The position numbers were made by a program, and so were the translations under genes. A stretch of 64,000 nt of DNA from Adineta vaga. Its lineage: Eukaryota > Animalia > Rotifera. The stretch is from positions 434,001-498,000 of the forward strand of contig CP075494.1 in NCBI GenBank assembly GCA_021613535.1, in the 5' to 3' direction. This document shows positions 1 through 60,110 of this stretch, piece by piece (positions within the stretch are counted from its first letter, which is position 1; every line of letters begins with the position of its first letter). The notes below the pieces were generated by a model that saw nothing but the letters and a program-made list of their open reading frames with translations, did not search any database and had not been told where the DNA came from.

Positions 1-935
1 TGAGTTGGATTTAGTTCGATGTTAGTGCTTGAGCCGAGTGGTATAAGTCGCAAGTTCGAACCGGCTAAAAATTCGAATAAAGCCTTAATTTCATTTTTTT
101 CATAACCTGGATAGTTGAACAACTCATCAAATACCAAAATTGATCCTGAAACTAAACGACTTCCAAGAAGGAATAAAACATCTCGTGCACCATCGTAAAT
201 ATCACAATCAATGTGAACGAATGACACCGGAGTATGACATTGATATTCACGATCAATTAAACGAAGTTGAGTAGGTAATGTGTCGATAAATAAACCTTTC
301 ACTAAAACAACATTTGATGGAACTGAAACAACGGATCCATTAGGTATACTAAACGATCCAGCGCCATAACCAGGTCTCCAGTTCGTCGGTAATCCACTAA
401 AAGTATCAAACCCATAAACTGGCTGACTGTTATCCCCACAAAACACTCTCCTCCAATTAGCGATACTAGTTAAAGTAGCACCACGAAATACTCCAAATTC
501 CATCCAAAGACCATTACAAGAGGGTCTCACTATATCTTTAAGTGGAGGATTGTGAAAAAGGATTTGAATAGAATGTGTCCCTGGAGTAAGTCGACGTGAC
601 ATTAAAGCTGTACGAGTATTTGTAATAAATTCACCTAAGGTTGAGTGGTTTTGCGATATGTATATGATTCTTGAAGCATCACGTTCACTTACATATGCAC
701 TTCTATTATTCATTGTTGATAGAATTATTTCTTTGAATTGATCACGTTTGAATGAACCACTATTAGATGGATGGCATAGAACTTCAGACGATGATATTTG
801 AATCATAGAATAACCCATTGTTGTGTTCAGTATAGTATTGCTTTGTATACAGATACTACGCCGTATTATGAGATATATAATGATGGCGAGTAAAAAATAT
901 AATAGAAGCTGTATGTTTCTTTTAGTTGTGATCAT
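1..935 (-). CDS. TylF/MycF-like class I SAM-dependent O-methyltransferase with N-terminal membrane anchor; runs off the window edge
   Basis: Hand translation from ATG at 935, absent from the ORF track because there is no stop in the window. Motifs GLWMEFGVFRG, YGFDTFSGLP, LVKGLFIDTLP, FVHIDCDIY, ILVFDELFNYPG. No intron seen. Confidence 0.85.
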   Translation of the reverse strand, partial: MITTKRNIQLLLYFLLAIIIYLIIRRSICIQSNTILNTTMGYSMIQISSSEVLCHPSNSGSFKRDQFKEIILSTMNNRSAYVSERDASRIIYISQNHSTLGEFITNTRTALMSRRLTPGTHSIQILFHNPPLKDIVRPSCNGLWMEFGVFRGATLTSIANWRRVFCGDNSQPVYGFDTFSGLPTNWRPGYGAGSFSIPNGSVVSVPSNVVLVKGLFIDTLPTQLRLIDREYQCHTPVSFVHIDCDIYDGARDVLFLLGSRLVSGSILVFDELFNYPGYEKNEIKALFEFLAGSNLRLIPLGSSTNIELNPT

Positions 936-963
936 CTAAACAGTATTCTAATCGGTATTTTAC

Positions 964-1057
964 AAGGGAGTGGGCGTGTGTGTGTGTGTGTGTGAACAAG
1001 ATTATAAGATAAGTAGACGGATAAAAGGAATATTATCACCCACTGACATCCACCGAG
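964..1057. repeat. Degenerate telomere-repeat palindrome (includes a (TG)n tract)
   Basis: aagggagtgggcgtgtg... paired with ...atcacccactgacatccaccgag. Confidence 0.45.
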
Positions 1058-1503
1058 GTATTATATCTGTAGATGGAATTGAAAATAGTTACTGACGTTA
1101 CTCATCTGATACGACAAAGAATAGATTGTCGTGCTTGATATACTCGCGTTATGTGCGTTTTGTTTCAGCTAACAAAGAGTAGAACTCAGATAAAATAGGA
1201 AAAGGAAAAAGATAAACTCAAGCAAGAGAGAAACAAGATACTAGACACTTTTTAACTCTAACCAGATTTCTCATGAATTTGTCGCGAATGTTGATGGAAT
1301 GAACGTTATACTCATACTCCTCAGTTGTTGACAAAGTGATAATATTCTACATCGTTCTTTTTCGTTCTGTTCTAAACAATATTTGTGATGACTCCTTCGG
1401 AATGCGTTTGTTCGTTATCCAAGATAAAACAGAAAAGAAAAACAACGTTGAATAGGTAGGCATATTTGTTTCATCTGCTGTGTTAACGAGATCTTACAGT
1501 ACT

Positions 1504-2400
1504 ATGCCAAAAAAGTGCAACGTTACAGTCGAATCGAAGCCATGCGACAAGTCTTCGTTTGCCACCTGCAATGGACGTAGACATATTACTTTTTTTATCT
1601 TCACTAAATATCATTTTTGCTTTTTGCAGGTCAGCACTCATTTTGCTTATCGCATCTTAACGTTCACCAACAACAGCTCAACACGCAAATGGAGGGAATA
1701 GTTCATATTCACGATCTGTTACTCGAAGAGCTGAATGAACATTGCAGTCCCTTGGTACATGAACTACTTACTTTTGCCCGTGAACTTAGTCTTATCGATG
1801 CATGGCAGATACGTACTTTGGCACAAGCCACAAATCAAATTACACAAGAAGCAAATCGAGCTCGAAACATCGTTCGTCAAGCTATCGAAGAGAATCAGCA
1901 CTGAGCGAACGGCAATGATGTTGCCATTTCGGAGAGTTTCATGCAGCTAAAGAAACGTCTGACGATACTTAGTGAACAGTTGCAGATAAGAATGAAGACA
2001 AGTGATTATCTAGAGCCCGATTTACGTCAGTGGGATACTGAGCTGAGCGATATCAAAAACGTTAGCTTGATCTCGTTCATGTTGAAGCGCATGATGATAA
2101 ACAAGCTAGTTGTGGGAGAAATGCGACAGAATCAAATGTACGCCTCGAACATACTTAGTATTGAATACGAAGACGATGAGAGAACTGAAGAGACAAACTG
2201 TAAATACCAGACGAAAGAACCAATAAAAGCAACAGTTTCAGCAGCGAATGCTTATGTGGCCGAGAAGGTAACAGGTGAGTACTAAACGTCTTGTAACGTC
2301 TATAATGTAATAGCTTGTTATTGTTTCGTTCTTATAGACCGGAGAATCCTTGACGATTATGACACCGATCGAAACCGGCATCAGGCTAAGAAATAACTGA
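1504..2400 (+). pseudogene. B-box-like zinc finger plus coiled-coil gene with an in-frame premature TGA
   Basis: MPKKC..C....TCNG, GT-AG intron, then QHSFCLSHLNVHQQQL. ORFs 1617-1904 and 1941-2285 share one frame and are separated by a single TGA at 1902-1904. Confidence 0.6.
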
Positions 2401-5400
2401 TATTACCCACGCTTGCAATACTCTGATGACGCTATTTTTTTACATATGAATAGAAATGTGATTCTCTAATAAAGAGCTGAAGATGTAATCTATTATTTAC
2501 TTTGACTATCTTGACGGTGTGAGTATTATATTCAAATAGCACGCACATCCTTTCTTTTTTGACAGCAATATATTTCTTCACATATCATCCTAATATTTAT
2601 TAAAAGAACAGCTCTGGAAAAGTTATGATGATCTTGGATTTTCAGAAATTTATTTTATATTTTGTGGGAGAGCGGTGCCATCCCTGCCCTCTCGCTGGAT
2701 AAAATACTCCTGACAAATTCCGATCCGTCCATTCTTTATATCTTTCTTTCTGTTCTCTCCTTCCGCGGTCACGTATAAATAGCTCTGTTCGTGCTTTGTT
2801 CGTTCGTCAGGGTTCTAGGAAGTAAACTAAACACGCTAGCCAAAGAACTGTGGTTCACTTCATATAGAAAAAAAATGAACCAATCAAATTTGAGTCCATA
2901 TTACACTATAATGTATCATTTTTCTCTTTTCCTACGTAGACCATTACACGAAATGAATTAGGGTGAAACCTAGGGGTGTCGTGTCGGATTAGTACTAGTA
3001 TTAAAATTAACATCAATGCTTTGGCGTTAGCATTATTTTCAATGTTGATACATATGCTTCCTGTAACTTTTTAAGGGCTGCTTGGCGCACGCTTAGTTAC
3101 TTTTTAAGAGCTATTCGGGGGTACAAGGCCTATCTTGAGAGAGTATGTGTAACGTCCCAAGCACTAACTGTGGATAGCATCTGAAAATTTACAAGCGTTG
3201 CTTTCGAATAGCAACTGTTACTTTAGGAGAGCTAGCTTCTGGCAGTAGCTGCAGTTTTACCAAAATAACTTGCGAAAGTAGTCGTTACACTACAAACTGT
3301 GAATTATTTTGGCACACGTAAATTTCTGAAGTCACTAGAATATCGTATCTAGCACCGTCGATAGTGGGTATAGCAATGGTCTGGCAAACTTTACTCTGAA
3401 TTCGCTGCGACAAAAATGCATTGCCAGACAGTTATGGAAAACGGCTACGTAGTAAATTGTTTCGCCTAAGTTAGTATCTCTCCGCGTAAAGCCAGTATGC
3501 AAGCACTCCTTGGGTGAAAATAAATCCTTGAGAAGAAAGGAAAATCTCTATGGTCGAAAGAATTGAACCTAAAAAACCCATTGCCTTTATCGCTCTGGAT
3601 AGCAAACCGTTTCGAATATTTAACATACAAACTATAAACACTCATAACGTTGCATAATCTCCTAGCTAATACTATTTCAATATCGTTTTCACGTAACTAA
3701 ACTTGCGATCTTGAGTTAGATACTTCGGAAAAGGTTATTATGCATACTCCACCGTAACTAAGACATGTACCAGTCAAGCCACAGTGAAACTCCTCAACAT
3801 CATGTATACACGGATCGTTGACCGTTATAAGGTCCACTACAATGTATCCCATAAGAAAATGTGTCTTCTGATATGAGATAGGCCTTAAAAAGTTATTAAA
3901 GAAATCCCGGATAGTCCTTAAGAGAGGGTTTGTGGGACCACCAGGCAAACCGGTTGCTAAAAAATGTTAATATTTCAAATGAGTTTCCTAGTTTGAAAAA
4001 ACATAAAACGTTACTCAAAAATCCAAATCTTTACAGTTTTTAGGGGAAATCTTTGAATACTTCGAAGATCTGATTGTTTTGTTCGAAAATATTGCTATGT
4101 CGAAAACTATGGCTTTTAGATCGTTTCTCTTTATGAAGTTTTGATCACAAAAAATTGATTAAAATCGTTATTAAATTATACCAATCGATAGAGCATACGT
4201 TATTCTACAAAACCCTATATTTTCTATGTTATTCTGTGTCTACAAAATTCAAAAAAAAATCATTATAATAGGTGAAATCGACCATTTTTTGATCTATTTT
4301 ATTTACATGCTGTCGTTTACCATTCTTGCATCTTTTATGTAGTTACTTTTCAATAGCTTAAGATAAATTGTACATAGTTTTGTCGAGTGTTAAAAGATGC
4401 ATCTTTTCATAAAAAAATTCAATATAAAGTACTCGCAAGGATCCATAAAGTCCATAATAATGATGTCCACTATATATATATCATTTTTATGAAAATATGT
4501 ATCTTTAGCAGAAGGAGCTTCAAATTATGGTGTAAAACGAAGTAATCTACTAGAAGATCTCACCGTGTACTCACTTGTGTTGCTTTTTCCGCAAACAATC
4601 AGATAATCTCTTTAGTAATAGAATGAATAGTTTGAATTTGATAAGAACAAAAGGAGAAATAGATTGAAAAAGAAATAATATTGGTGAAGATTTTTTTTAT
4701 TAAAAAAAATTCTCATTTACAAGAATGAGACGCTAACAAAAATAAGTCTTCACTAAAACCAATAGAAAAAGCAATAAACATAATTTCGATGAAAGTGAGC
4801 AGTATAATATATGTAACAAAATTTTGATTTGAATGCAGTGAAAAAGACTGAAATAAAAATGCACTACGCGAACAATCAAGCCCATGATGACAAGGAAATG
4901 AATAAAAAAAGAATTGAATTACGATCAAATGCAAATATTGCGTCGATTACCATAGTGCTCATGGCGTATTCTAAATATTGAAAAAATCCATTCTATTACC
5001 TCTGACTATCAGCGATCGATATTCTAATCTGTTCGAAAGATAATAGGAATATATATGTTATTAACTATTTGTTTCTTTCGATTTTCGATAAATAAATATT
5101 ATTTCTTACGGATAATCGTTGATTTCAATTAACAGTAACTATCAGAAATGATGAAAGAAGAAGGATCGTTAAGTGATGTGGACGATTTTCTGAAAAGTTT
5201 AAATCTAACTTTTCAGTGACATTATTTTAAACGTCTATAATCTATTTCTCGTTATATCAGGATGTGAGTATTCTAAATGTGATTACAGATTATTTCTCAT
5301 ATTCATATCCTCGAGTATTTCTTTATTAAATATTAGAAGTTCGTAAATTTAAGTAATTCCCATGTTATTTGGCGAGTGTTCATCGTGATGATAAATGTAT

Positions 5401-5428
5401 TCTCTTAAAGAAGACACCAAAATTAGAA

Positions 5429-5484
5429 CATGTGGGTGTGGGTATTCCATCTACTCCCACACCCACACCCTCACCCACATCGAG
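5429..5484. repeat. Telomere-repeat palindrome at the truncation point of a ricin-B gene
   Basis: catgtgggtgtgggtattccatctactcccacacccacaccctcacccacatcgag. Confidence 0.9.
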
Positions 5485-6530
5485 TGTTTTACCAGATTCG
5501 ACATTAATCAATTCATATAAATTATCTCCAACTGATTTCAAAAACCATCGTTGTGCAACTGAACGATTGTTTGTACAAAGTTGAACATTAGTACCATCTG
5601 AATGTCCATCATACCAGTAATATCTGATGCTTTATCACTATGTGGATTAAATAATTGAATTGAATCATCATCATATCCATAGATAACCCAAATTTGATTG
5701 AGACCTTTGTGATTTTTAAAAATTTCAACATTGGCACCATCATGTATACCACTATCATGTACATCAAGAACCTTGTTTGAACCGGTATGAATGAATTGAT
5801 GGGTATTACCAAAAATAATATTGACTTCGTCTACATAAAGAAAAAAACGTACATTTTAAAAGTATAGAGAATGAATTTTATTCTCAAGATACTCGTTGCC
5901 AAAAAAAATAGAACTGTAAAACTAGCACTGTATTTACACTCACTTTCTTCTGTTTTACCAGGAGCTGGAAATGTATCGAGATATTCTCCAAACCATACAT
6001 TTGCAATTCCTTTATAAACACCAACACCCATGGTTTTCATCGGTCCCCAACCACCTCTTTGTATCATGATATTATTATGACCAGGACTATTTATCCAACT
6101 TTGAACAGCTTCGTATGGATCAATATTCATTCTTTTTCTCGCATCATGAACATATCCATGTGAATTTTCATAACCAGTATAGTTATAATTACTTATTTCC
6201 GGTGGTTTACTCCACATTAAGTGTCCTTGTGCATGATCACTTGATATATCAGGATTATTTTCAACAAGATCAATAGCATGAGTACGAGCAACAAAAGCAA
6301 GATTAGCAGATGGTTGAAGTGCAGGTAAACCATGATTTTCACGATGATTATTGATAAATTTAAATATTTTCTGTTCTACATCATTCATACCATAAAATGA
6401 TGATCTTCGAATTCGATGAACTATTAATGAAAAGAAAGAAATGATGAATAAGATTTATATTATTCATTTATTTTAGTCAGTTAAATGATAAATAATAATA
6501 TTTACCTTTTTCATTGTTGATTTTCGTCTC
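5478..6530 (-). pseudogene. CAP/SCP domain plus ricin-B lectin repeats; frameshifted and 3'-truncated
   Basis: CAP motifs INNHRENHGLP, ARTHAID, WINSPGHN. Next exon has NKVLDV..DGANV..NQIW and AQRW..LYELINVESGKTLDV. A frameshift lies near 5612 and the reading frame runs into the palindrome. Confidence 0.75.
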
Positions 6531-7027
6531 ATTTTGATATTCAATAGACTTTTCATTTGTTATCTCACTTCACAAAATGGAATGAAAACATCGTAGGTCA
6601 TGGGAATTTCTCATCTCACATAATATCTGAGTCCATGTCAATGTCATTTCTTGATTACAAATCTACATTCAAAACAGCACAAACTTTCGTGAATATCTAA
6701 AGACTCTATGAGAAAATTCAGATCATCTCGCATCAATGATCGTAATATTAAACAAATATGATCATAAACATATAGTTGTAAAAGAATTACGACTCCAACA
6801 GATTCTACTAGTTTTTATCAAAAATACAAAATAATGTATAAGTTTTATTATGTAATTAGTTTTAGAAATTTCCATATACGAATTGTCTTGAATAGAAATA
6901 CATCATAAACTATTTTCTCAACTCATTGAAGTTTTCTTCACTTAATCATTGCTACATATTTTTTTCCACTAGGCTGTTTCAATTCTCGTATAATAATTAC
7001 TTGTGTTTCATATATTTAATATATTGT

Positions 7028-7092
7028 GCGACGAATTGTCTATGTGACGAATAGTCCATGACAAATAGTCCGCGACGAATTGTCCAGTCACC
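7028..7092. repeat. Four tandem copies of an approximately 14-15 bp unit (GACGAATWGTC); probable DNA-transposon subterminal relic
   Basis: gcgacgaattgtctatgtgacgaatagtccatgacaaatagtccgcgacgaattgtcc. Confidence 0.55.
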
Positions 7093-7147
7093 ACTATATA
7101 AGGGAGTCTTTTCTATTCAAAAATGAATAGTCGAAATCAATAAAAAA

Positions 7148-8606
7148 ATGATATTTATTGGTATTTTAATCATTATCAGTTTATCTTTCGATTTGATCAA
7201 ATGCGATATTAATTGGAATGGAAACAATTGGGCATTTGCTTGTGATTTCAAAGGAAATAATCTTTCAAATGTACGAATTCCTGGAGAACAATGTGGTGGG
7301 AAATGTACAAGGACTCCTCAATGCACTCACTTTGTGTGGACAACTTCTAATGGTGGAACTTGTTGGATGAAAAAAGGTGCGGTTTCAAAAAAAGATGCTA
7401 TTGCAACTAATGATAGAAATATGGTCTGTGGTGTAATGAAAAGGTAAGATGGAAAACAAAATCGATGTTATTGATGATATATGAAGTTTCAAAACAGGAT
7501 AGAGGTTTCAGTGAGGATGAGCGTGGGTGTGGGTATTCATGCTTATACCTTATTTTTCACGTATTCTTCATCATTCTATTAATTTAGAAAACCTGTTTTT
7601 AGAATGAGAACTTGAAAACAAATTTATATGATAGATAACTATATGGGATACAGAAAATGAAAGAAAAGAAAGTCAATATTATTTATTAGCAATATCTTAA
7701 AACTTTCGATATCTTTTTTTTTCGATCTTTTTGTTCCACATTTTTGCTTATAACATTTATTTTTTCGACGTTCGTGTAGTAAATCAACGGAAAAACCCTT
7801 CTACATTATTGCACATATGGCTAACAGCAAGTTTGCTGTTGACTGGGCTGTGAAACAGGGTGCAAATGCCATCGAATGTGACTTACGTTTTGATACCAAT
7901 GGAAATCCCTCTGCTATTGACCATGGTCCTGGTTGTGATTGTGAATGTGCGAAAGGAAACGATCATATTTGCATTGCTCTTCAGAATCAATGTTCAGGAC
8001 CCGCATCTCGTGAAAATCCAGCAGTTTATATGCAAAATGTTGCACGTCATAATAGTATTGGTCTTTACTTCGTGGATTCCAAAGTGGGTGGTTTTTCAGA
8101 AGAAAGATTGGTTAAAGCAGGCAAAGCTCTTATTCCTTTCATGGACAAGAATTTATTTGGTTACGGTTATAAAGGAGCTGTTGTTATCTCATCAGCATCA
8201 TTTAGTACGTTTGCTTACGTTCGATCAGCAGCAATAGCAGCAAAATCTTCACGAAATGCAAATCATTATTTCTTCACGATTGATCAAGAAGAAAATAACT
8301 ATGCTGGTGTCATGAATAAGCTTTATCCATATACAAACAATCGAGTCTATGGTACTGGTCGTGGTTCATGTGGTGAGGGTGAAACGTATTATACTGCCAT
8401 CGAAACTGCTGTTGCTGGCAAAAAGCAAGGTGAAAATGGCATGAATTACATCTACACCGTGGACCAAGAAGAAATCATGCGACAATATATCAAACATGGT
8501 GTCGACGGAATTATGACAAACCAGATTGCCTTAGCAAAGAAAGTTGCAATATCGATGGGCCTAAGACTTGCACATCTCAGTGATAGGATTTCAATTTCAA
8601 AAAAAC
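7148..8606 (+). CDS. Secreted PAN/apple domain plus sphingomyelinase D / GDPD-like phospholipase D (SicTox-like)
   Basis: Signal peptide and PAN cysteine pattern in 7148-7443. Phase-2 donor AG|gtaag at 7444 joins the acceptor at 7779 in frame. Catalytic motifs FYIIAHMAN, GANAIECDL, DHG..CDC, YTVD, GVDGIMTN. Confidence 0.8.
7511..7552. repeat. Degenerate telomere-repeat element inside the predicted PAN-SMaseD intron
   Basis: gtgaggatgagcgtgggtgtgggtattcatgcttatacc. Confidence 0.65.
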
Positions 8607-8764
8607 GTGAGTATGAAAGCTTTTATTATAATAATACAGCAAAAACAAGCGATGAATTTGATCTAGTGACAAACACTTATTTACCCTGGATTGATATTTT
8701 ATCACTGTTATCGAAAATGAATTGCTATTGAAGTTATGTTCTAATTTTTCTAGCATATATATGA

Positions 8765-13369: not shown

Positions 13370-13496
13370 TGAGGGTGTGGGTGGGTGTGGGTAGGTGTGG
13401 GTGAGGGTATGGGTGTGGTGTAGATGAGAGTGAAGAAGATATACCCACGCCCTCAAATTATTGAGTATAGTCTTGAGGGTGTGGGTGTGGGTGTGA
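13370..13496. repeat. Telomere-repeat palindrome (spacer type A) plus an adjacent half element
   Basis: gagggtgtgggtgggtgtggg...gatgagagtgaagaagatatacccacgccctcaa, followed by cttgagggtgtgggtgtgggtgtg at 13472. Confidence 0.9.
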
Positions 13497-21296: not shown

Positions 21297-24200
21297 TTAA
21301 GTCGGATGAGAATACTTTGCCGTATGTTCTGGATTTTTTGTTGATCGACATTCAGCTCCATATCTACATGGAATTAGACGACGTTTTGCTACACCTGTAC
21401 TACTTGATGTTTTATTTTCTAAAATCAAATTGAAATAGAAATATTTGAATTATAGAAAATCTTTTTGTTTTACTTTTAAATGGAGAAATTTCTTCATTAT
21501 GAAAATATTTTATTCGATGTTCGGTAGTATTATTTCTACAGATCTCTTGATCACGACATGGATAGAGATAATCAGGTTTTCCTGTATGTCGATATTGAGC
21601 ACGATGAACTGGATCAGTAAGTTTCGAACAATGATTATCATTTGAACATTTAGGAACATTATGTTGTTCATGAATAAGATTAGGTTCATTATCCTGATTT
21701 CGACATAATTCATTAAAACGACATGGATGGGAATACTTGTTAGTATGATCTCGTTGATTTAATTGTAAACAATAGATAGAATCTTGACAAGGAGGTAATT
21801 TAACAGAAGCGGCCGATGTTGGATTTGGTTTTTTCGTAATAGATGATGATGGATTATATGCCCTGTTTTCAGGATGTGAATCGTATGTTGTGCGTTTTGG
21901 AGCCGATGTGTGAGCATCATCGGAAACTTGTCTTGGTGAAATATTTCTTTTCGGCGGACCAAATAGTGCAATTCTAATGCGTTGAAAAAAAGATGGCTTC
22001 GGTACATATGATGGATGTTCAACAGGAGCTCTTGGTGGCGGTTTAGAATGTTCAGAAGTTTCTTTACTTGTTCCAGATGCTCCAGCATGATAGCCAATAA
22101 TGGTAGGCATATAATCAAACGGTTCTCGAGTCTGTTTTATTAATTTAGATGTATCAACTGTATAATCTCTATCGAATGTTGGATGTAATTCAGGTATTTC
22201 TTCGTGACGAATAATTAAATTACGTATTGGAACATCTTCAAGTCCACCACTAACGTGAATATAATCTAATCTTGATAAATCTAATTCTGATTTATCAAAT
22301 TGATAAGAAATCTGCTCATGATTATAAATACCATTTGGACCAGCATGTGATAAAGTGACTTGATTATCTTTATAAGTAATTTTCAAACAAAAAGTAAAGA
22401 AATCATCTGTATTACAACCACGATAGAAAACATTTGATTTGGCTTTAAATTGAGCTTTATGCGTATTATTGTAATGTTGAGCAGGATGATCATCATTTAA
22501 ATATGAATATGTTTCATGATAATCGTCAGTCGCTTGAGATGGTTTTTCTGCAACATAACAATTGAGATATCGTAATTTATTTTGATCTTTATCATTTGTT
22601 TGAATTTTTTCATTGGCTAATGTTAACATCATATCACCATTCATTGCTTGCCAATATATATAAGTATATTCAAGATGATTGCCTTTATGAGACTTATCAA
22701 GAGAATATAATTTGTATGATTGAGAAATTGTAATTGGTATAACGATTTGATCATCAAATTTTGTTCCGGCAATAGTTATAACAATACCACGAGAGATTTG
22801 CGGTGCTGCCATTCTTTGTTTAATTTTTGCGAGGTTTTGTTCAAGTATATATTGTCGGTATGGTATACGAGATGCATCTAATTTAACAAGTGAACCTGGT
22901 ACGATTAAACTAAGATCAATTGTATGGTCAGTTAATATCAATGAATCACGAAAAACTGCTCGAGCAGATTTTCGAGCTTCATCACTCAATGATTGATATA
23001 AATTTTTTGGCATATAAACATTCTCAATGTAATCTAAAGGAATTAATTGAGGTAAATGACTTTCGAATACATCATGCGAATCTCGATCGAGACTGGTCCA
23101 TTGTTGAATAATAGTATTTAGATTGATGTCCATCGATTTCTGATTTTTACCATAAAAAGCAATAAGTTCCGTAGCTGCAGCGTATTCATAACGAGGAACG
23201 GAACAATGTAATTTAGCATTATGAAAATCTTCAATGCGTTTATCCTCGCTACCTGGATCTGTCCACCATGAACGTAGTTTATAAACTCTTGCACTAGGAA
23301 AACCAGTGCCAGCTTGAAAAGTAAAATTTGCATCTGGATGAAACATAATTTCTTGCTTGAACGTAATAACAATATCACCATAATAAGTACCAGTATGTGG
23401 TCCTAATATACTAAAAATATGTTGATCTGTTCCTAATTTTGTATCAACATCATATCCTATTCCCATTGGTTTAGATGTTAATTTAATCGATGCTTCAGCT
23501 ATTTTAACTGTCCATTCATGTATCACTTGAATACTTCTGTCATCAAGTGGTGGTTTTAGTTTTCTTTCGATAGTATTAATATTATCGTTATGATCAGCAT
23601 CCGTAGAAGTTATTCCATAAGTTCCTGCTTTTGCAAATTCTGCGTGAACTAACAGTTTAATCAATTCATGAACATTATGTTTTACTTCAGAACTGTTATG
23701 TTCGAGAAGTATTCGACGTATTCGACTATGTTGCAATACAGCTTTAGCAACATGTTTGGGATTTTTTAGTAATTCCATAAATCGACGACTCATGACATGT
23801 CCAAGTACAAGAATTGATTCAAAAATAAGTGGACTACAACGATGTACGGGTTGTAATGCTCGTATCCAATCGAGTATTTCTCGAGGAATCGAAGCTTTTT
23901 TCCATCCGTTTGCGTCCGTATATGCTTTAAGATTTCGTATTATTTCTCCTTGATTATGTGTAAAATTGATCGATGCATTGAAATTTCTCGATGGTGCAAA
24001 GCTTAAATGATCATAATTTTGTCCATGTCGAAACTTTCGTAGATGTTCATCTTTAAGTCGATCATGACATTTGAAACCTGGATGTTTACAAAACAGACGA
24101 ACATCTCGAATTTTGGAATGACTGAAAGATTCCAAATGTTCTTCATCAGTAAGCTTCGTACATTTATCTTCTTGAGAGCAAAGATGACGAGCAATATGAA

Positions 24201-27105
24201 TCGATGTTAAAAAGTGTGAAAGATCTTTTGTTTTGCATTGACGGCCAAATAAACACACGTGTGAATGTTGAAGGCAATGATTTTCGACTTCGGGATCAAG
24301 TTTTTCTCCTGAACGTAGTTGCGTGTATGTCACATATTTTGGACAATTATAAGGTGTAAATGGGCAAGGTATTCGGAACGAATGAATTGTATCTTTTATA
24401 TGTTCTTTATCATGAAATCTAACACAACAATTATCTTGAGGACAGATTGATCTAAAATGACGATTAGTAGTACAATGTTCTTGATCTCCTTTTAAATAGT
24501 GTGGACATTTAAGTCTCAGTGGACAAATTGGAAAGTGACGATGATTGAATAAATGATCTGAATCTGTAATGTGACAATCAATTCCATCTTTACATAGTTG
24601 CGGATGATCATATTCACTTATATGGTTGGGATCATTATTTTGACATTCCCCGCCATGCTTACATTTGATATTATGACGAAATGTAAACATATGTATCTCA
24701 TCATCTATTTGTTTACATGGTGATTCTGTACTTTGATGAGAACATACTGGTGGATGTGAAAATTCGTTACAATGTTGAACATCTTTTATTTCACGACACT
24801 TTATGCTGTGATGACATGGCGATTTGTATAAGATACGTGCTTCACTAAGAGTTAATTGTCCATCTGACGATTTATTAAGTATAGAATATGGTCCAGTAAC
24901 TCCATTAAGTCGTAATACTTTCGGTGGATAAAATGTCTGATTATCTAATATTCTTTGAAATGGAGCAAAATTTCCATTTGGATTCATTTTATTCCCAATA
25001 TTATGATCATCAATTATAGCAAAATAAATTTTATCAAAATATCCAGCATATTGAGTAATAACAGATTTAAAAAGTAGCGCAATATGTTCCGGTGGATTTT
25101 TAAAAGCACCACAACCAAGAGCCGATAAGACCAAACAATCATGATTTTGATGATATCCAATTGCAAAAATGTTTTCAATCTTTTTATGTGTATTTACAGC
25201 AACTTTATCTTCTAACATATTATCTTTAGTCAATTGAGGATCTCGAAATGCAGCTATAGCTAAAGAACAAACATTCGAAAGTGGTTTAGCCATATATGCA
25301 TAACCTTCTTCTTCTTCTCGTTGTCGAAAGACAGTTATACCAGATGTATAAATAGCACCAAACAGTTCCATTGGATAGAAACCTTTATATCCAGTTGGTT
25401 TTCTAATTTGACCTTTCTTATTACAATACAATGGTTCTGATTGATCTTTATCAGCTATTTCTATATCTAAACTTTGATAATAATCAGATCGACGAAAAAG
25501 ATTTTCTTCTTGAGCTCCATCACCTTTTCGATAACCACCACCGGGACTTGTTGCATTGGCCATATTTAATAATAATGGTCGACATCCGCTAACCGCTAAT
25601 TTTTCATAAAGTACCAGACAATCTTCATTAACAACATGAACTGTTGTTGATTCATAAGGAGTTTTAAATTCAGATTCTTTTATAGTTTTTCCATCGAATA
25701 ACTTCGATTGATGATCATAACCGATTGTTTTCAAACGTTGTAAATCTAATTTCACTTCTTTTCCATTAACAACATATTTTTTCTTTCGAAGAACAGCAAT
25801 TGTATTTAACATGACTGTTACTCGTAATAAATGTAAAATACGATCGTATTTAGAATCTCGTTTTCTTTGTCTTTTAGCTTTCTCATATTGTTCCAACCAA
25901 TTTTGAGCATTCCATTTATAATGAAGAATCGGATGCTGATGATTATTGATAATTGTTGTTATATCTGGTGTAGCTTCAAGCATTAATGTTTCGTACCAAT
26001 TTTCGGCATTTATTTCACATTGATCTGGATTAATATCAATAGTATGTGGATTAATACGCATAAGAGCATTATCAACACGAAGCGCGCCAACTGCCAGACA
26101 CCTAGTAAAACTATCTAAACCATCTAGTTCGATAACAAGATGATCATCGTTAAGAGAATGATTAAGAACTTGACCTTCAAATATTTGGTTTTCAATGATA
26201 CGATTGATATCAAACCCACGTGGAAGATCAGATACAATAACTCGATAAGCAAGTTTTGTTTTTTTCGATAAATTTCGTCCATTGAGTACGATAAAACCTT
26301 GACTTTTCCATTTTTTCCATGATTTTGATGCGATTACAACTGCATTACTGGTTATTCTGTCATATTGTACGTGAAAAGCAGTCGATGGAAGTGTATTTTC
26401 ATCAATTTGTGCAGCAACAGCATTCATAAGTTTATCATTATTTGTATTTGAAGGTAATTCTTCAAAAAAATCACAATCAGCACGCGGGTAAACTTGGGCA
26501 ATACTATTTCCTATTTTAAAATCTGGCATATCAGCAGCAGCAACAAGTTCATCAAAATTTGTTAAGAAAATTCGATAAATGTTCGGAAACTGAACAGAAA
26601 CAGGTTCGCAATTATATTCATCAGATGTATTATATGCTTGCATATAATAACGAGATACTTTAGTTCCCGAAGGAAATTTCGTCTTAGTTTGATCTAGTAC
26701 AATATATGAATCAAATTCTAATATATCGACAAATGAAATTGTAATATTCAAATCTTTATCAAAAATCATAGTTTGAACATCATTAAGAAGATATGTTCGA
26801 TCGTCTTCCTTATGTAATTCAACTACAGCAATACCAAGTTTTAAATAACATTCGACATTTTTTATTGTCATACGTCCAATTTTTTCAATACAACATCGAA
26901 GTTTTTCTTGAAGATTATCGTTTGGATAATTCATCGGTAAATCTGGTATATACACTAATATGTCTTGATTAACATTAGTCTTTGGAGGTAGTCCTAGTTT
27001 CTTAGTTGATTTCGTGGATGATTTATGACTCGTTGAAGGTTTCGAAGCATCTGCTCCTTTCGAAGGAGAACTTATTTGAGAGTCACTATTATTATCATTT
27101 GACAT
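21297..27105 (-). CDS. Large multidomain protein: TIGR02452/DUF2263 microbial-type PARG, PBZ-type zinc-finger arrays and a candidate ART-fold domain
   Basis: LNMANATSPGGGYRKGDGAQEENLFRRS and LSALGCGAFKNPP; many C-x5-C-x5/6-H-x5-H units. A terminal exon at 21297-21418 splices in frame and encodes CRYGAECRSTKNPEHTAKYSHPT*. Confidence 0.9.
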
Positions 27106-27587
27106 TGTTATATTCGATGTTTATTAAAATAACTAGAAGAAAATAATAAAATTAGATATATGATCATATGGAAATTTAAATATCACAATTCAATGCGAGA
27201 AGTAAATTACATTTTAGCAACTGCTGATACTACTTAAAACGCAACGTGAAAATCTTCAACAAACAGCGTTTCATACATACCCTCGTAATAAAGTATCTCT
27301 CGTAGAAAAAGTCAGTAATCTGAAATTAAAATTTCAATTCAACAGCTTCTATATGAGCAAACAGAGTTATAGTTGGTTTTTACCAAGTTCTTGTTCGAAA
27401 ACTTCGGTAGTAGAGAAAAGAAATATTCTTGGATAAGAGATAAGTATACGAAAAGAATAATAAAATCTTATCAAACTTGACAACAGAAAAAATAATAAAA
27501 GTATTCGCCCGTATATTCAAGATTGGATGGTTATTCTAGAACAGATCAGACTTCCACGATTTGAAACTCAGACGAATTTGGTTTTCG

Positions 27588-31921: not shown

Positions 31922-31936
31922 ACTAATACAGAACTA

Positions 31937-33179
31937 TTAGGTTGTCAACAAAGTTTTGGCGTTTTTTTCAAAAATTTTATTTTTGTTTTTTCACTTCAAA
32001 AGTACAACTAGTTTTCAGATATATATTTACCATTACTATCTACCACTTGTTGCCAACGCTCTGGCAGAGACATGATCCCGCGCTCGTAGAAGTCCTGGGA
32101 TTTTTCATCAAAGAACTTGACAAGCTCCGTTTTGACATCGCTTTCGTCGTCGAACTTTTTATCACGTAAATCATTCGAAAGAGATCGAAACAAATGGTAG
32201 TCTGTTGGAGCCAAGTCAGGGGAATAAGGTGGATGAGGAATGGTAATCCAGCCGAGCTTCAATAATTTTTCACGGGTCGACTTTGCTACATGTGGTCTAG
32301 CGTTGTCATGTAAAAAATAAACTCGATCCTGCTTTCCCTTGAGCTTTTCTGCAACCCGATCCAATTGTTGACAGTACAGATCAGCAGTGATGGTGTAACC
32401 ATTTGGTAGAACTTCCCAGTGGATAACTCCTTTGATACCCCACCAGACGCTCAGCATCAATTTCTTGGGATGGAGATCAGCCTTCGGTGTTGCTACGCCG
32501 GTTTGACCAGCGCTCAGCCACTGACGTCGACGCGGGTAGTTAACATACAACACCCACTTCTCATCACCAGTAATCAGATTGGATAACCATTGGTAGTTGC
32601 GGTGAGATGTGATTAAATCCATACATGCATCAACTCTCTGTTGCAGCTGATGTGCCGATAATTCATGAGGTATCCATACCCCATATTTCCAGGTCTTGCC
32701 TAATTCGTTCAGATGTTTTTCCACCGTAGTATGAGAGCACCCGAGCTGCTCTGCTAAACACCGTAAAGTCAGTCGAGGATCTTCTTCGATAAGCTGCTTT
32801 AAAAAGTCCACATCCACTTCCATTGGTCTACCAGATCGAGGTAAGTCGTCGAGTTCTAAATCGCCATTCTTGAAATGATTGAACCAACGTTGCGCGGTAC
32901 GAGTGGAGACTAGACCCTGACCCATCGTGCCGCATATGTTGCTGGCTGCTTCCGTTGCTTTGTGCCCCAAACGAAATTCATGAAGTAAAAGCACTCGAAC
33001 CTCTCTATGAGAAAGATTTATCTTTGACTCGACATCAACGTCCATATCAACGATTTTTTTTATCATTCAAAAGACATTCATGTCCTATATATATACCCTT
33101 AGTATGGAAACTTCTAGAACTTTCTTGGTTGTTCTACAAGATTTTAGAAAAAAACGACAGAACTTTGTTGACAACCTAA
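31937..33179 (-). mobile_element. Full-length mariner (DD34D) DNA transposon
   Basis: TIRs TTAGGTTGTCAACAAAGTT.. and ..AACTTTGTTGACAACCTAA; TA on both flanks; about 1.24 kb. Confidence 0.97.
32008..33066 (-). CDS. Mariner transposase, intact
   Basis: WIPHEL, ITGDEKW, HDNARPH, YSPDLAPTDYHLF. Confidence 0.97.
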   Translation of the reverse strand: MIKKIVDMDVDVESKINLSHREVRVLLLHEFRLGHKATEAASNICGTMGQGLVSTRTAQRWFNHFKNGDLELDDLPRSGRPMEVDVDFLKQLIEEDPRLTLRCLAEQLGCSHTTVEKHLNELGKTWKYGVWIPHELSAHQLQQRVDACMDLITSHRNYQWLSNLITGDEKWVLYVNYPRRRQWLSAGQTGVATPKADLHPKKLMLSVWWGIKGVIHWEVLPNGYTITADLYCQQLDRVAEKLKGKQDRVYFLHDNARPHVAKSTREKLLKLGWITIPHPPYSPDLAPTDYHLFRSLSNDLRDKKFDDESDVKTELVKFFDEKSQDFYERGIMSLPERWQQVVDSNGKYISEN

Positions 33180-33350
33180 TATGTGTGTAAAAAGCAAACG
33201 ATGATTCTTTTTCTTCTCAATTCAAATCTGTTTGTTGAATAGATTTTATTTTCAGAAATAAAAACTGCAATAATAATGAAACACAATATAAAGAACGAGT
33301 CGTGCCATGATGATCTTCTTCAATTTCAATAAATATTTAAACCATTTTTT

Positions 33351-44803: not shown

Positions 44804-45200
44804 ATGGTGTGGGTCAGAGATGTCCATCGCGGTTAAAAATCTACCGCTGCCACGCCGCTGCCGCGATGGTTTCAGAAGAAAAACTTTGAAACTTGAGTCT
44901 TGCGACTGTGTTGGACCGGAAATACTGCTAATAATCTATCATATTCATTTAGTCTCAAATTGTTACATTTGTAAACACTAAAATTCTGATAAAACTATGC
45001 TGTTTTCCAATGTTTCTCTAAAAATTGCTGCCGCTGCCGCGTCGATGCCGCGGTGATGTTTCCGAAAATCTGCCGTTGCCGCTGCCGCCGTCGCGTCGCG
45101 GCAGTGGTAGCGCCGCGATGGACATCTCTGATGTGGGTGTGGATTAAGATTATAGCCTGACCCACACGCACACTCTCACCCACATCCACATCCTCACATG
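44804..45200. repeat. Telomere-repeat palindrome (spacer type B) interrupted by a MITE
   Basis: Removing 44815-45130 and one TSD restores ggtgtgggtgtggattaagattatagcctgacccacacgcacactctcaccc. Confidence 0.8.
44815..45130. mobile_element. hAT-type MITE, 316 bp
   Basis: Perfect 18-bp TIR CAGAGATGTCCATCGCGG; 8-bp TSD gtgtgggt/atgtgggt; GCCGCT subterminal repeats. Confidence 0.88.
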
Positions 45201-58400: not shown

Positions 58401-58455
58401 TTTGAGGGTGTGGGTATATCTTCTTCACTCTTATCTACGCCACACTCACATCCTG
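58401..58455. repeat. Telomere-repeat palindrome (spacer type A)
   Basis: tttgagggtgtgggtatatcttcttcactcttatctacgccacactcacatcc. Confidence 0.88.
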
Positions 58456-59007
58456 CCATTTAATTAGTAAGAGTATTAATTCGTTTTTTTATTCACATAC
58501 TTTCTCACAATGATAAATATGATTCAAACGTACTCTAACGATATTCCACGATCAAAACGACATTTTCAAGGTTAAAAAAACTTCTGAACTCAGTCGGAAA
58601 TGAAATAGTGATAAGATGCATTGACTTGTTCATAAAATAAAATATTTCATGATTTGTTTTTCAACATCGAGATGAGAAATAAGAAGGGAAAGTCTCTTGC
58701 TTTGTTATGTTCGAACATTTCCGTTTAGTAAAAGTAATTCATCTGTTTCGAACGTTCATTGATAATCAATCTAACAAAGATTTATTTATTCTTCTTATTT
58801 TTTGCCTTTCTTTCCGTTTTTTATGTTTCATTATGCATTCAGAATGCTAGATGTATTTTTCCCTTTTCAGATCGTCATTGTCTGGAGGAATAGAATTTTG
58901 TCAATGTCTATCAATACAATTCAACGCCATTGAAAGTCACACAAGCAAACCGTCCACCAATAACTAATATCTTTCCATTTAATAATCTAGATGCTGTATG
59001 ATAACCT

Positions 59008-59072
59008 CTGTGGGTGTGGGTGAGGGTGTAAATCAAACATACGAGAATACTAACTGATACATACACCCTCAA
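59008..59072. repeat. Telomere-repeat palindrome
   Basis: tgtgggtgtgggtgagggtgta...tacatacaccctcaa. Confidence 0.85.
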
Positions 59073-60052: not shown

Positions 60053-60110
60053 TCTTGAGGGTGTGGGTGTGGGTATATCTTCTTCACTCTCATCCACACC
60101 CACACCCAAG
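60053..60110. repeat. Telomere-repeat palindrome (spacer type A)
   Basis: tcttgagggtgtgggtgtgggtatatcttcttcactctcatccacacccacacccaag. Confidence 0.92.

What the first reader, a model, noticed from the sequence alone, without database searches (positions are those of the whole stretch)
5429..5620. Ricin-B lectin gene is cut exactly at a hairpin element
On the minus strand the frame reads LYELINVESGKTLDV and passes straight into GGTGAGGGTGTGGGTGTGGG. The rest of the lectin repeat was not found beyond the element. The junction CTCGA-TGTGGG is both coding sequence (LDV) and the element's typical end, which suggests microhomology or target-site-directed joining. A simple insertion should leave the remainder of the gene on the far side. 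The gene has also acquired a frameshift.
Basis: partly seen in the sequence, partly recalled or inferred. Interest (0 to 1): 0.8.

Follow-up and report, generated by a model that had tools for sequence, protein, structure and literature searches.

The report
Telomere hairpin built inside rotifer gene
A spare copy of a rotifer lectin gene breaks off where two short inward-facing runs of telomere repeat sit, and the DNA between and just past those runs still resembles the gene's missing end, so the hairpin was likely built on the spot during repair of a DNA break rather than inserted as a ready-made element.

Summary
The break is real, but it is not a clean cut. The window is from the bdelloid rotifer Adineta vaga. 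The gene is a decaying CAP + ricin-B-type lectin copy at single-copy read depth. An intact paralog (P0046) and A. ricciae P0019 run 29 residues past LDV, and reads confirm the 2-nt frameshift. The 'element' is two perfect runs of the bdelloid telomere repeat (TGTGGG/TGAGGG) facing each other; 15 such hairpins in the window are G-then-C and none is purely C-then-G. Shared junction sequence is only TGT; CTCGA belongs to the gene. New here: with the far arm removed, the 12-nt loop plus the next ~19 nt match the missing codons in order (24.5 bits; 0 of 107 other hairpin orientations, 0 of 1000 in two nulls; pattern spotted before testing). The last ~14 codons are lost. Best reading (0.45): telomere tails were added to two broken ends around a retained gene fragment. 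Against it: other hairpins share loops and a fixed ATCT end, and a second truncated gene nearby shows no gene-derived loop. The scan's earlier notes already describe this hairpin class and a telomere-capped gene in other bdelloids.

The parts
6507..6563 (-). Upstream exon of the CAP-lectin copy (P0046 residues 18-36); residues 1-17 not detected
   Evidence: tblastn of P0046
5959..6421 (-). CAP-domain exon, open, with an in-frame 19-codon loss relative to P0046
   Evidence: Pfam PF00188 E 1.3e-12; alignments
5831..5958 (-). GT..AG intron as implied by the NCBI models P0001 and P0046
   Evidence: sequence; proteins; paralog contigs diverge behind 5839
5477..5830 (-). Ricin-B-type trefoil exon: repeats 1 and 2 and the start of repeat 3, up to LDV
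   Evidence: PF14200 E 3.4e-8 and 1.4e-7; tblastn 74-87% identity to P0019
5610..5613 (-). Frameshift: 2 nt more than the paralog contigs
   Evidence: table 4
5456..5479 (-). G-rich telomere arm, 24/24 match to (TGWGGG)n. 5479-5477 (TGT) is shared with the gene. About 5476-5461 is added sequence. 5460-5456 is possibly the gene's own.
   Evidence: last clause inferred from the loose end and P0046
5444..5455 (-). 12-nt loop resembling the gene's G-S-G / D-G-T codons with 8 nt missing
   Evidence: loop-only score reached by 3 of 107 other orientations; hand count; no relative among 54 other loops
5431..5443 (-). C-rich telomere arm, 13/13 match; pairs with the inner 12 nt of the G arm
5413..5431 (-). 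Likely gene remnant (N-V-Q-I-W-S codons with one extra base); beyond it the gene is no longer recognisable
   Evidence: 0 of 107; 0 of 1500; repeat 3 fits best; p 0.004-0.034 with P0046

Best explanation
This is a broken spare copy of an Adineta vaga CAP + ricin-B-type lectin gene in which two inward-facing telomere-repeat runs interrupt the last lectin repeat, and these runs were likely added during repair of a DNA break around a retained piece of the gene. Proposed steps. (1, inferred) The duplex was broken twice about 26 nt apart, or cut with a stagger. (2, inferred) Each exposed 3' end, one ending in TGT and the other in T, both in register with TGTGGG, was extended with telomere repeats by telomerase or an Athena/Terminon-type reverse transcriptase, or by copying an existing arm. 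(3, inferred) The ends were rejoined to the small gene fragment through short in-register overlaps, giving G arm / gene fragment / C arm with no target duplication; 8 nt of the fragment were lost. (4, shown as absence; timing unknown) A further junction near 5413 removed the last ~14 codons. Shown directly: the arms, the polarity, the TGT overlap, the frameshift, the intact paralog and the single-copy depth. The hairpin is a repair scar in a copy that was probably already dispensable, not a functional part.
For: Loop plus far flank (C arm removed) against a codon-usage model of the P0046 tail scores 24.5 bits. The 107 other hairpin orientations reach at most 15.9; 0 of 1000 other-loop plus random-flank strings and 0 of 1000 shuffled tails reach it (max 24.2). 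The flank strictly outside the arm: 2, 7 and 17 of 500 random strings reach its score under three settings. Repeat 3 fits it best (17.1 bits vs 12.7 and 8.5). Hand count on real DNA (loose end): 14 of 18 bases match with one 8-nt gap, 16 of 18 if the P0046-type copy differs at the two positions its protein implies (inferred); the exon elsewhere is ~87-94% identical. The pieces are colinear. Neither end has the family ATCT terminus, the loop lacks the family TCTTCTC start (3 mismatches), and it has no relative among 54 other loops. No excess of target duplications in 53 hairpins. Precedent: in-register nucleotides at 31 of 40 horse insertion sites and frequent deletions (PMC7215372, passages); head-to-head repeats explained by a second telomerase at 3 of 41 loci (PMC8537989, passages); telomere repeats at deletion breakpoints in A. 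vaga (PMC13564844, passages).
Against: The match was noticed by eye and then tested. The loop alone is weak (3 of 107). The flank alone is p 0.02-0.06 with four other homologues and ~0.16 with a fifth, and it also matches the gene's own repeat 1 at 11 of 13 nt. The family looks templated: a 19-nt loop is identical in two distant copies and differs at one base in a third, ATCT[TC] precedes 3 of 14 and 10 of 30 outer ends (0.003 expected per end), and TCTTCTC starts 4 of 15 and 10 of 41 loops (0.64 and 2.76 expected; motif chosen after looking). In a second case, a kelch fragment starting at the 59009 hairpin, neither loop nor far flank is kelch-like (97 and 251 of 400 nulls). One survey failed to find TERT in A. 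vaga (PMC5405514, passages); I recall bdelloid TERT being reported elsewhere but could not open that paper. The model does not by itself explain why C-then-G never occurs.
Confidence: 0.45

Rival explanations
1. Templated patch: a break in the gene was repaired by copying the inside of an existing family hairpin, which replaced ~29 nt. The gene resumes past it. The loop came from the donor, chosen by or coincidentally sharing short homology.
For: Shared loops and fixed ends show that copies are templated. About one hairpin per 2-4 kb gives many donors. Explains the far-side remnant and the missing ATCT ends. Many other contigs overlap the loop in reads, two with small indels, although arms alone can drive such alignments at 85%.
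Against: No relative of this loop among 54 others. The loop is closer to the gene (9-10 of 12, hand count) than to the common family loop (3 mismatches in 7).
Confidence: 0.28
2. A MITE-like element with telomere-type inverted ends transposed in with a short duplication (AT or ATGT flanks both sides); later microhomology deletions removed its ends, 29-33 nt of gene and the tail.
For: ATGT stands on both sides. The family has a symmetric ATCT...AGAT terminus in some copies, such as L242. Microhomology deletions are documented in A. vaga (PMC2861651, passages).
Against: ATGT is supplied twice by the gene itself (D-V and N-V codons). No duplication excess across 53 hairpins. Needs several extra deletions while the arms stayed perfect, and leaves the loop's resemblance to chance.
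Confidence: 0.12
3. One reading: the gene ends at LDV, the hairpin joins it to unrelated DNA, and the gene-like look of the loop and far side is chance.
For: No protein-level tail. The last 14 codons are undetected. The kelch case looks like such a joint. No paralog contig lies on 5161-5311.
Against: Combined and anchored tests.
Confidence: 0.13
4. Assembly artefact.
For: The window copy is at single-copy depth; the matching runs may include the assembly's source.
Against: One 6861-nt contig spans the junction with 0 differences in three runs from three studies.
Confidence: 0.02

Closest known systems
Short interstitial telomeric sequences inserted at double-strand breaks in vertebrates, including head-to-head TERC-ITS (PMC7215372, PMC8537989; passages read)
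   Same: Short exact telomere runs, in-register nucleotides at the junction, target deletion, no duplication, occasional head-to-head pair
   Different: There head-to-head pairs are rare (3 of 41 TERC-ITS loci) and the filler is random or telomerase-RNA-derived. Here head-to-head with a spacer is the rule, density is about one per 2-4 kb, and this spacer looks like retained target.
Neotelomeres at A. vaga deletion breakpoints, and Athena/Terminon capping (PMC13564844, PMC6431247; passages read)
   Same: Same organism and repeat; telomere repeats at breaks
   Different: Described as one-sided caps on ends; no paired inward-facing arms around a gene fragment in the passages seen. No Athena sequence or ribozyme was detected here (Rfam: 0 hits in 4500-7200; Athena itself not searched).
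Fusion-type interstitial telomere (human 2q13; named in PMC7215372)
   Same: G-rich then C-rich polarity
   Different: No chromosome-end fusion; arms of 2-4 units; the gene appears to continue across the hairpin.
MITEs (short TIR elements; general knowledge)
   Same: Family-wide fixed terminus and shared internal sequence in part of the copies
   Different: Arm lengths vary from 9 to 181 nt, no duplication excess, and this copy has neither the terminus nor the family loop.
CAP + RicinB_lectin_2 proteins of bdelloids (P0046, P0019, P0024, P0047)
   Same: Domain content; 76-87% identity of the window's pieces to P0046
   Different: This copy has a frameshift, a 19-codon loss, a disrupted third repeat and no detected first 17 residues. 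It is a lectin-fold domain; no toxin enzyme domain was found by Pfam.

Membership tests
Break-associated short interstitial telomeric sequence | Exact or near-exact runs of the species' telomere repeat at an internal site | tested here: met
   24/24 and 13/13 matches to TGWGGG; TGTGGG is the A. vaga repeat (PMC8494291)
Break-associated short interstitial telomeric sequence | An empty homologous site exists | tested here: met
   Paralog contigs and P0046 lack the arms. This is a paralog, not the allele.
Break-associated short interstitial telomeric sequence | Nucleotides in register at the break end | tested here: met
   TGT shared at 5479-5477; the other three junctions are inferred only
Break-associated short interstitial telomeric sequence | Made by telomerase | not testable with these tools
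   No genome held; TERT not found in one survey (PMC5405514)
MITE (this copy) | Conserved terminal inverted-repeat ends | tested here: not met
   Neither end has ATCT-TGAGGG
MITE (this copy) | Internal sequence shared with other copies | tested here: inconclusive
   No relative among 54 loops; whole genome not available
MITE (family) | Target-site duplication | tested here: inconclusive
   No excess at 2-7 nt in 53 hairpins; a 2-nt AT duplication at full-length ends cannot be told from the terminus
MITE (family) | Uniform length and a matching autonomous transposase element | tested here: not met
   Arms 9-181 nt, loops 7-41 nt; autonomous partner not searched
Fusion-type interstitial telomere | Junction of two former chromosome ends | tested here: not met
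   Gene-like sequence continues across it
Athena/Terminon end | Hammerhead ribozyme followed by (ACACCC)n and retroelement body | tested here: inconclusive
   Rfam 0 hits at E<=1 in 4500-7200; no Athena reference was compared
Ricin-B-type lectin (PF14200), pseudogene | Trefoil repeats with disabling lesions against an intact paralog | tested here: met

The most novel reading that the evidence does not exclude
Bdelloids have a routine break-repair route that tails both broken 3' ends with telomere repeat and stitches them back onto a short captured fragment. The fragment is local, as here, or comes from a recurring template. This leaves tens of thousands of strictly G-then-C hairpins, whose conserved ATCT and TCTTCTC flanks are footprints of one RNA or DNA template. 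This locus would be a nucleotide-level snapshot of the de novo event.
Probability: 0.2. Interest if true: 0.8.

Novelty: new variant of a known kind. Interest (0 to 1): 0.5.

Why it matters
How desiccation- and radiation-tolerant bdelloids rejoin shattered DNA, and how they capture foreign fragments, is an open question. An abundant scar with fixed polarity would make it countable. The test is simple and genome-wide: at filled versus empty sites, is the loop retained target or a copied template? As a gene story alone it is ordinary, a decaying duplicate with an intact paralog.

Tried and rejected
Protein-level search for the tail downstream and window-wide: nothing. A tempting S-P-N / W-R-I look-alike at 5375-5355: not significant (68-103 of 500 nulls); rejected. 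A resemblance of 5420-5395 to family loops: 96 of 300 nulls; rejected. The junction as the most telomere-like spot in the gene: about 1% of gene 14-mers reach 10 of 14, and a better site at 6018-6030 was not hit; weak. Kelch fragment at 59008 as a second gene-derived loop: negative. Pfam scan of 76 stop-free frames beside 69 hairpin or arm sites: 1 clear hit (LicD, L155), whose hairpins appear to lie in an intron and just past the stop, so no further test case. Taxon check of L155 named no bdelloid (best named hits a chytrid fungus, ~40%); the metagenome contigs are only probably bdelloid, from low GC and repeats shared with the window. Viral-contig scan: 125 loci, not analysed, assumed mostly chance. 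RNA: no RNA holder listed and 0 contigs laid in two guessed-RNA runs; no evidence either way. Rfam: 0 hits. No structure or complex prediction was run; none would change the reading. Genome, and the 2007 and 2017 Athena/Terminon papers, not held.

Full report
Organism and gene. The CAP frame's best hit is the NCBI model of this very gene, Adineta vaga I4U23_022034 (P0001, 98% identity, on a 16.93-Mb contig), which reads through the hairpin. Pfam gives CAP for 5834-6388 and RicinB_lectin_2 for 5613-5831 and 5476-5610. An intact paralog, I4U23_011138 (P0046, on a 20.35-Mb contig), and A. ricciae P0019 continue 29 residues beyond LDV. Whether the two A. vaga copies are ohnologs was not tested; their ~12.5% divergence (38-39 of 304 nt) is close to the 13% average for homoeologs (PMC8494291, passages).

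The copy is real and decaying. One 6861-nt contig covers 3500-6013 with no differences in runs X1, X2 and X5 (three studies; one may be the assembly's source). In X2 its depth is 90, against 108 and 107 for the two paralog-type contigs; in X5 it is 12 against 17 and 13. I infer one copy against two, though contigs can be filtered out. The paralog contigs lack 2 nt at 5610-5613. The copy also lacks 19 CAP codons, and P0046 residues 1-17 were not detected. Against P0019 as outgroup, 14 amino-acid changes are window-specific and 6 are P0046-specific, among 150 positions compared (p 0.058). This suggests relaxed selection but does not show it.

The hairpin. The arms match (TGWGGG)n at 24/24 and 13/13; TGTGGG is the species' telomere repeat (PMC8494291; PMC7943196, passages). 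The stem is 12 bp (z -3.75 and -4.68). The window has 57 telomere-like segments against 1-3 in 5 shuffles. They form 32 clusters: 14 G-then-C, 1 G-C-G, 0 C-then-G, 11 G only and 6 C only. A metagenome scan gave 119 loci. I used 35 that share related contig-name prefixes and are mostly 31-39% GC, dropped one duplicate, and left out the other 83. They are probably bdelloid (repeats shared with the window; a protein check named no bdelloid), and they were selected by a G-then-C pattern, so they say nothing about polarity. Family traits: loops recur (15 of 351 window pairs at p<=0.01, 3.5 expected; in the pooled set 19 of 1485 pairs, near chance apart from a few strong ones). ATCT[TC] precedes 3 of 14 and 10 of 30 outer ends (0.003 expected per end). 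TCTTCTC starts 4 of 15 and 10 of 41 loops (0.64 and 2.76 expected; motif picked by eye). Target duplications show no excess in 53 hairpins. So part of the family descends from a common template.

The junction. The paralog contigs align down to 5477, list no differences in 5477-5510, and then go on in frame. CTCGA is therefore gene sequence and the shared in-register overlap is TGT. The tail is absent as protein. At DNA level I noticed, then tested, that the loop and the bases past the far arm look like the missing codons. A codon-usage model of the P0046 tail aligned over 5467-5413 (20.6 bits; 99th percentile of 400 random segments 20.3). With the C arm removed the score is 24.5: 0 of 107 other hairpin orientations, 0 of 1000 other-loop plus random-flank strings and 0 of 1000 shuffled tails reach it. 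Taken apart, the loop alone is reached by 3 of 107. The flank strictly outside the arm is reached by 2-17 of 500 with P0046, 12-29 of 500 with four other homologues and 77-86 of 500 with a fifth. Repeat 3 fits the flank best, but the gene's own repeat 1 also matches 11 of 13 nt. By hand against the letters, 14 of 18 bases around the loop match with one 8-nt gap; 16 of 18 if the P0046-type copy differs at the two positions its protein implies (inferred). The last ~14 codons are not detectable. This loop has no relative among 54 others, lacks the family motif, and neither end carries ATCT.

Mechanism. The simplest account of the colinear pieces is that telomere repeats were added at two nearby ends facing inward and rejoined around the retained gene fragment, with a separate loss of the tail near 5413 (0.45). 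The enzyme is unknown. One survey found no TERT in A. vaga (PMC5405514, passages); Athena/Terminon reverse transcriptases attach at telomere overhangs (PMC6431247 and PMC5537684, passages). A templated patch copied from another hairpin (0.28) fits the family traits. MITE insertion with later deletions (0.12) and a plain joint to unrelated DNA (0.13) need more coincidence. The one independent case in the window goes against generality: a kelch fragment begins at the 59009 hairpin arm, but loop and far flank are not kelch-like.

Known and new. Vertebrate short interstitial telomeres show in-register bases (31 of 40 loci), deletions and occasional head-to-head pairs (PMC7215372 and PMC8537989, passages). 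A. vaga has telomere repeats at deletion breakpoints (PMC13564844, passages) and microhomology deletions (PMC2861651, passages). Nine searches (listings only, except the papers named) showed no paper on an abundant head-to-head hairpin family in bdelloids or on gene-derived loops. The 2007 and 2017 Athena/Terminon papers were not held, and the supplement of PMC13564844 (fig. S25, breakpoint sequences) was held as 150 characters only; either could bear on this. The scan's own unchecked notes already describe the hairpin class and a telomere-capped TIR gene in other bdelloid genomes, so the class is not new to the scan; the filled-versus-empty anatomy is what this locus adds. Verdict: real, a new variant of a known kind of break scar, interest 0.5.

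Noticed in passing
window 58905-59071: A single kelch repeat fragment (RGYHTAS...ELY, minus strand) begins at the end of a hairpin arm; loop and far flank are not kelch-like. A second gene piece bounded by a hairpin.
   Followed up: yes
window 44815-45131: A 317-nt TIR element (ends CAGAG...CTCTG, 8-nt duplication matching 7 of 8, hAT-like by recall) sits inside the G arm of a hairpin; a relative occurs in L136 (68% over 154 nt).
   Followed up: partly
window 13370-13455, 58403-58454, 60056-60108: Three dispersed hairpins share a 19-nt loop (identical in two, one difference in the third) with unrelated flanks and different arm lengths.
   Followed up: partly
window hairpins and L136-L244: A common unit recurs in the window and the metagenome set: ATCT, then TGAGGG/TGTGGG units, then a TCTTCTC loop start; arms reach about 180 nt. 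It could be a MITE end or a telomere-RNA template footprint.
   Followed up: partly
window 1-6013: A 6861-nt contig at single-copy depth; over the part laid (3500-6013) no allelic contig appeared, so the region may be present on one homolog only.
   Followed up: partly
window 6670-7120: A multi-copy repeat (depth up to ~17 times single copy) with GACAATTCGTCGC-type units lies directly upstream of the gene, near where its first 17 codons are missing.
   Followed up: no
window 31927-33189: A mariner-like transposase frame (32008-33066; family recalled from motifs) between 52-nt inverted repeats, apparently intact.
   Followed up: no
window 7817-8731: GDPD-family frame resembling phospholipase D/sphingomyelinase-type proteins (recalled), beside PAN and VOMI genes; possibly foreign-derived.
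   Followed up: no
window 21412-27120: A 1902-aa open frame with a macro-domain-like part and Cys/His repeats (by eye).
   Followed up: no
L173, L178, L182, L195, L206, L223: A different, fixed-length 34-nt hairpin with similar G-rich arms and conserved flanks in very AT-rich contigs; probably another organism's repeat.
   Followed up: no
L155 244-285 and 953-997: Hairpins apparently in an intron and about 20 nt after the stop of a LicD-family gene whose best named hits are chytrid fungal.
   Followed up: partly
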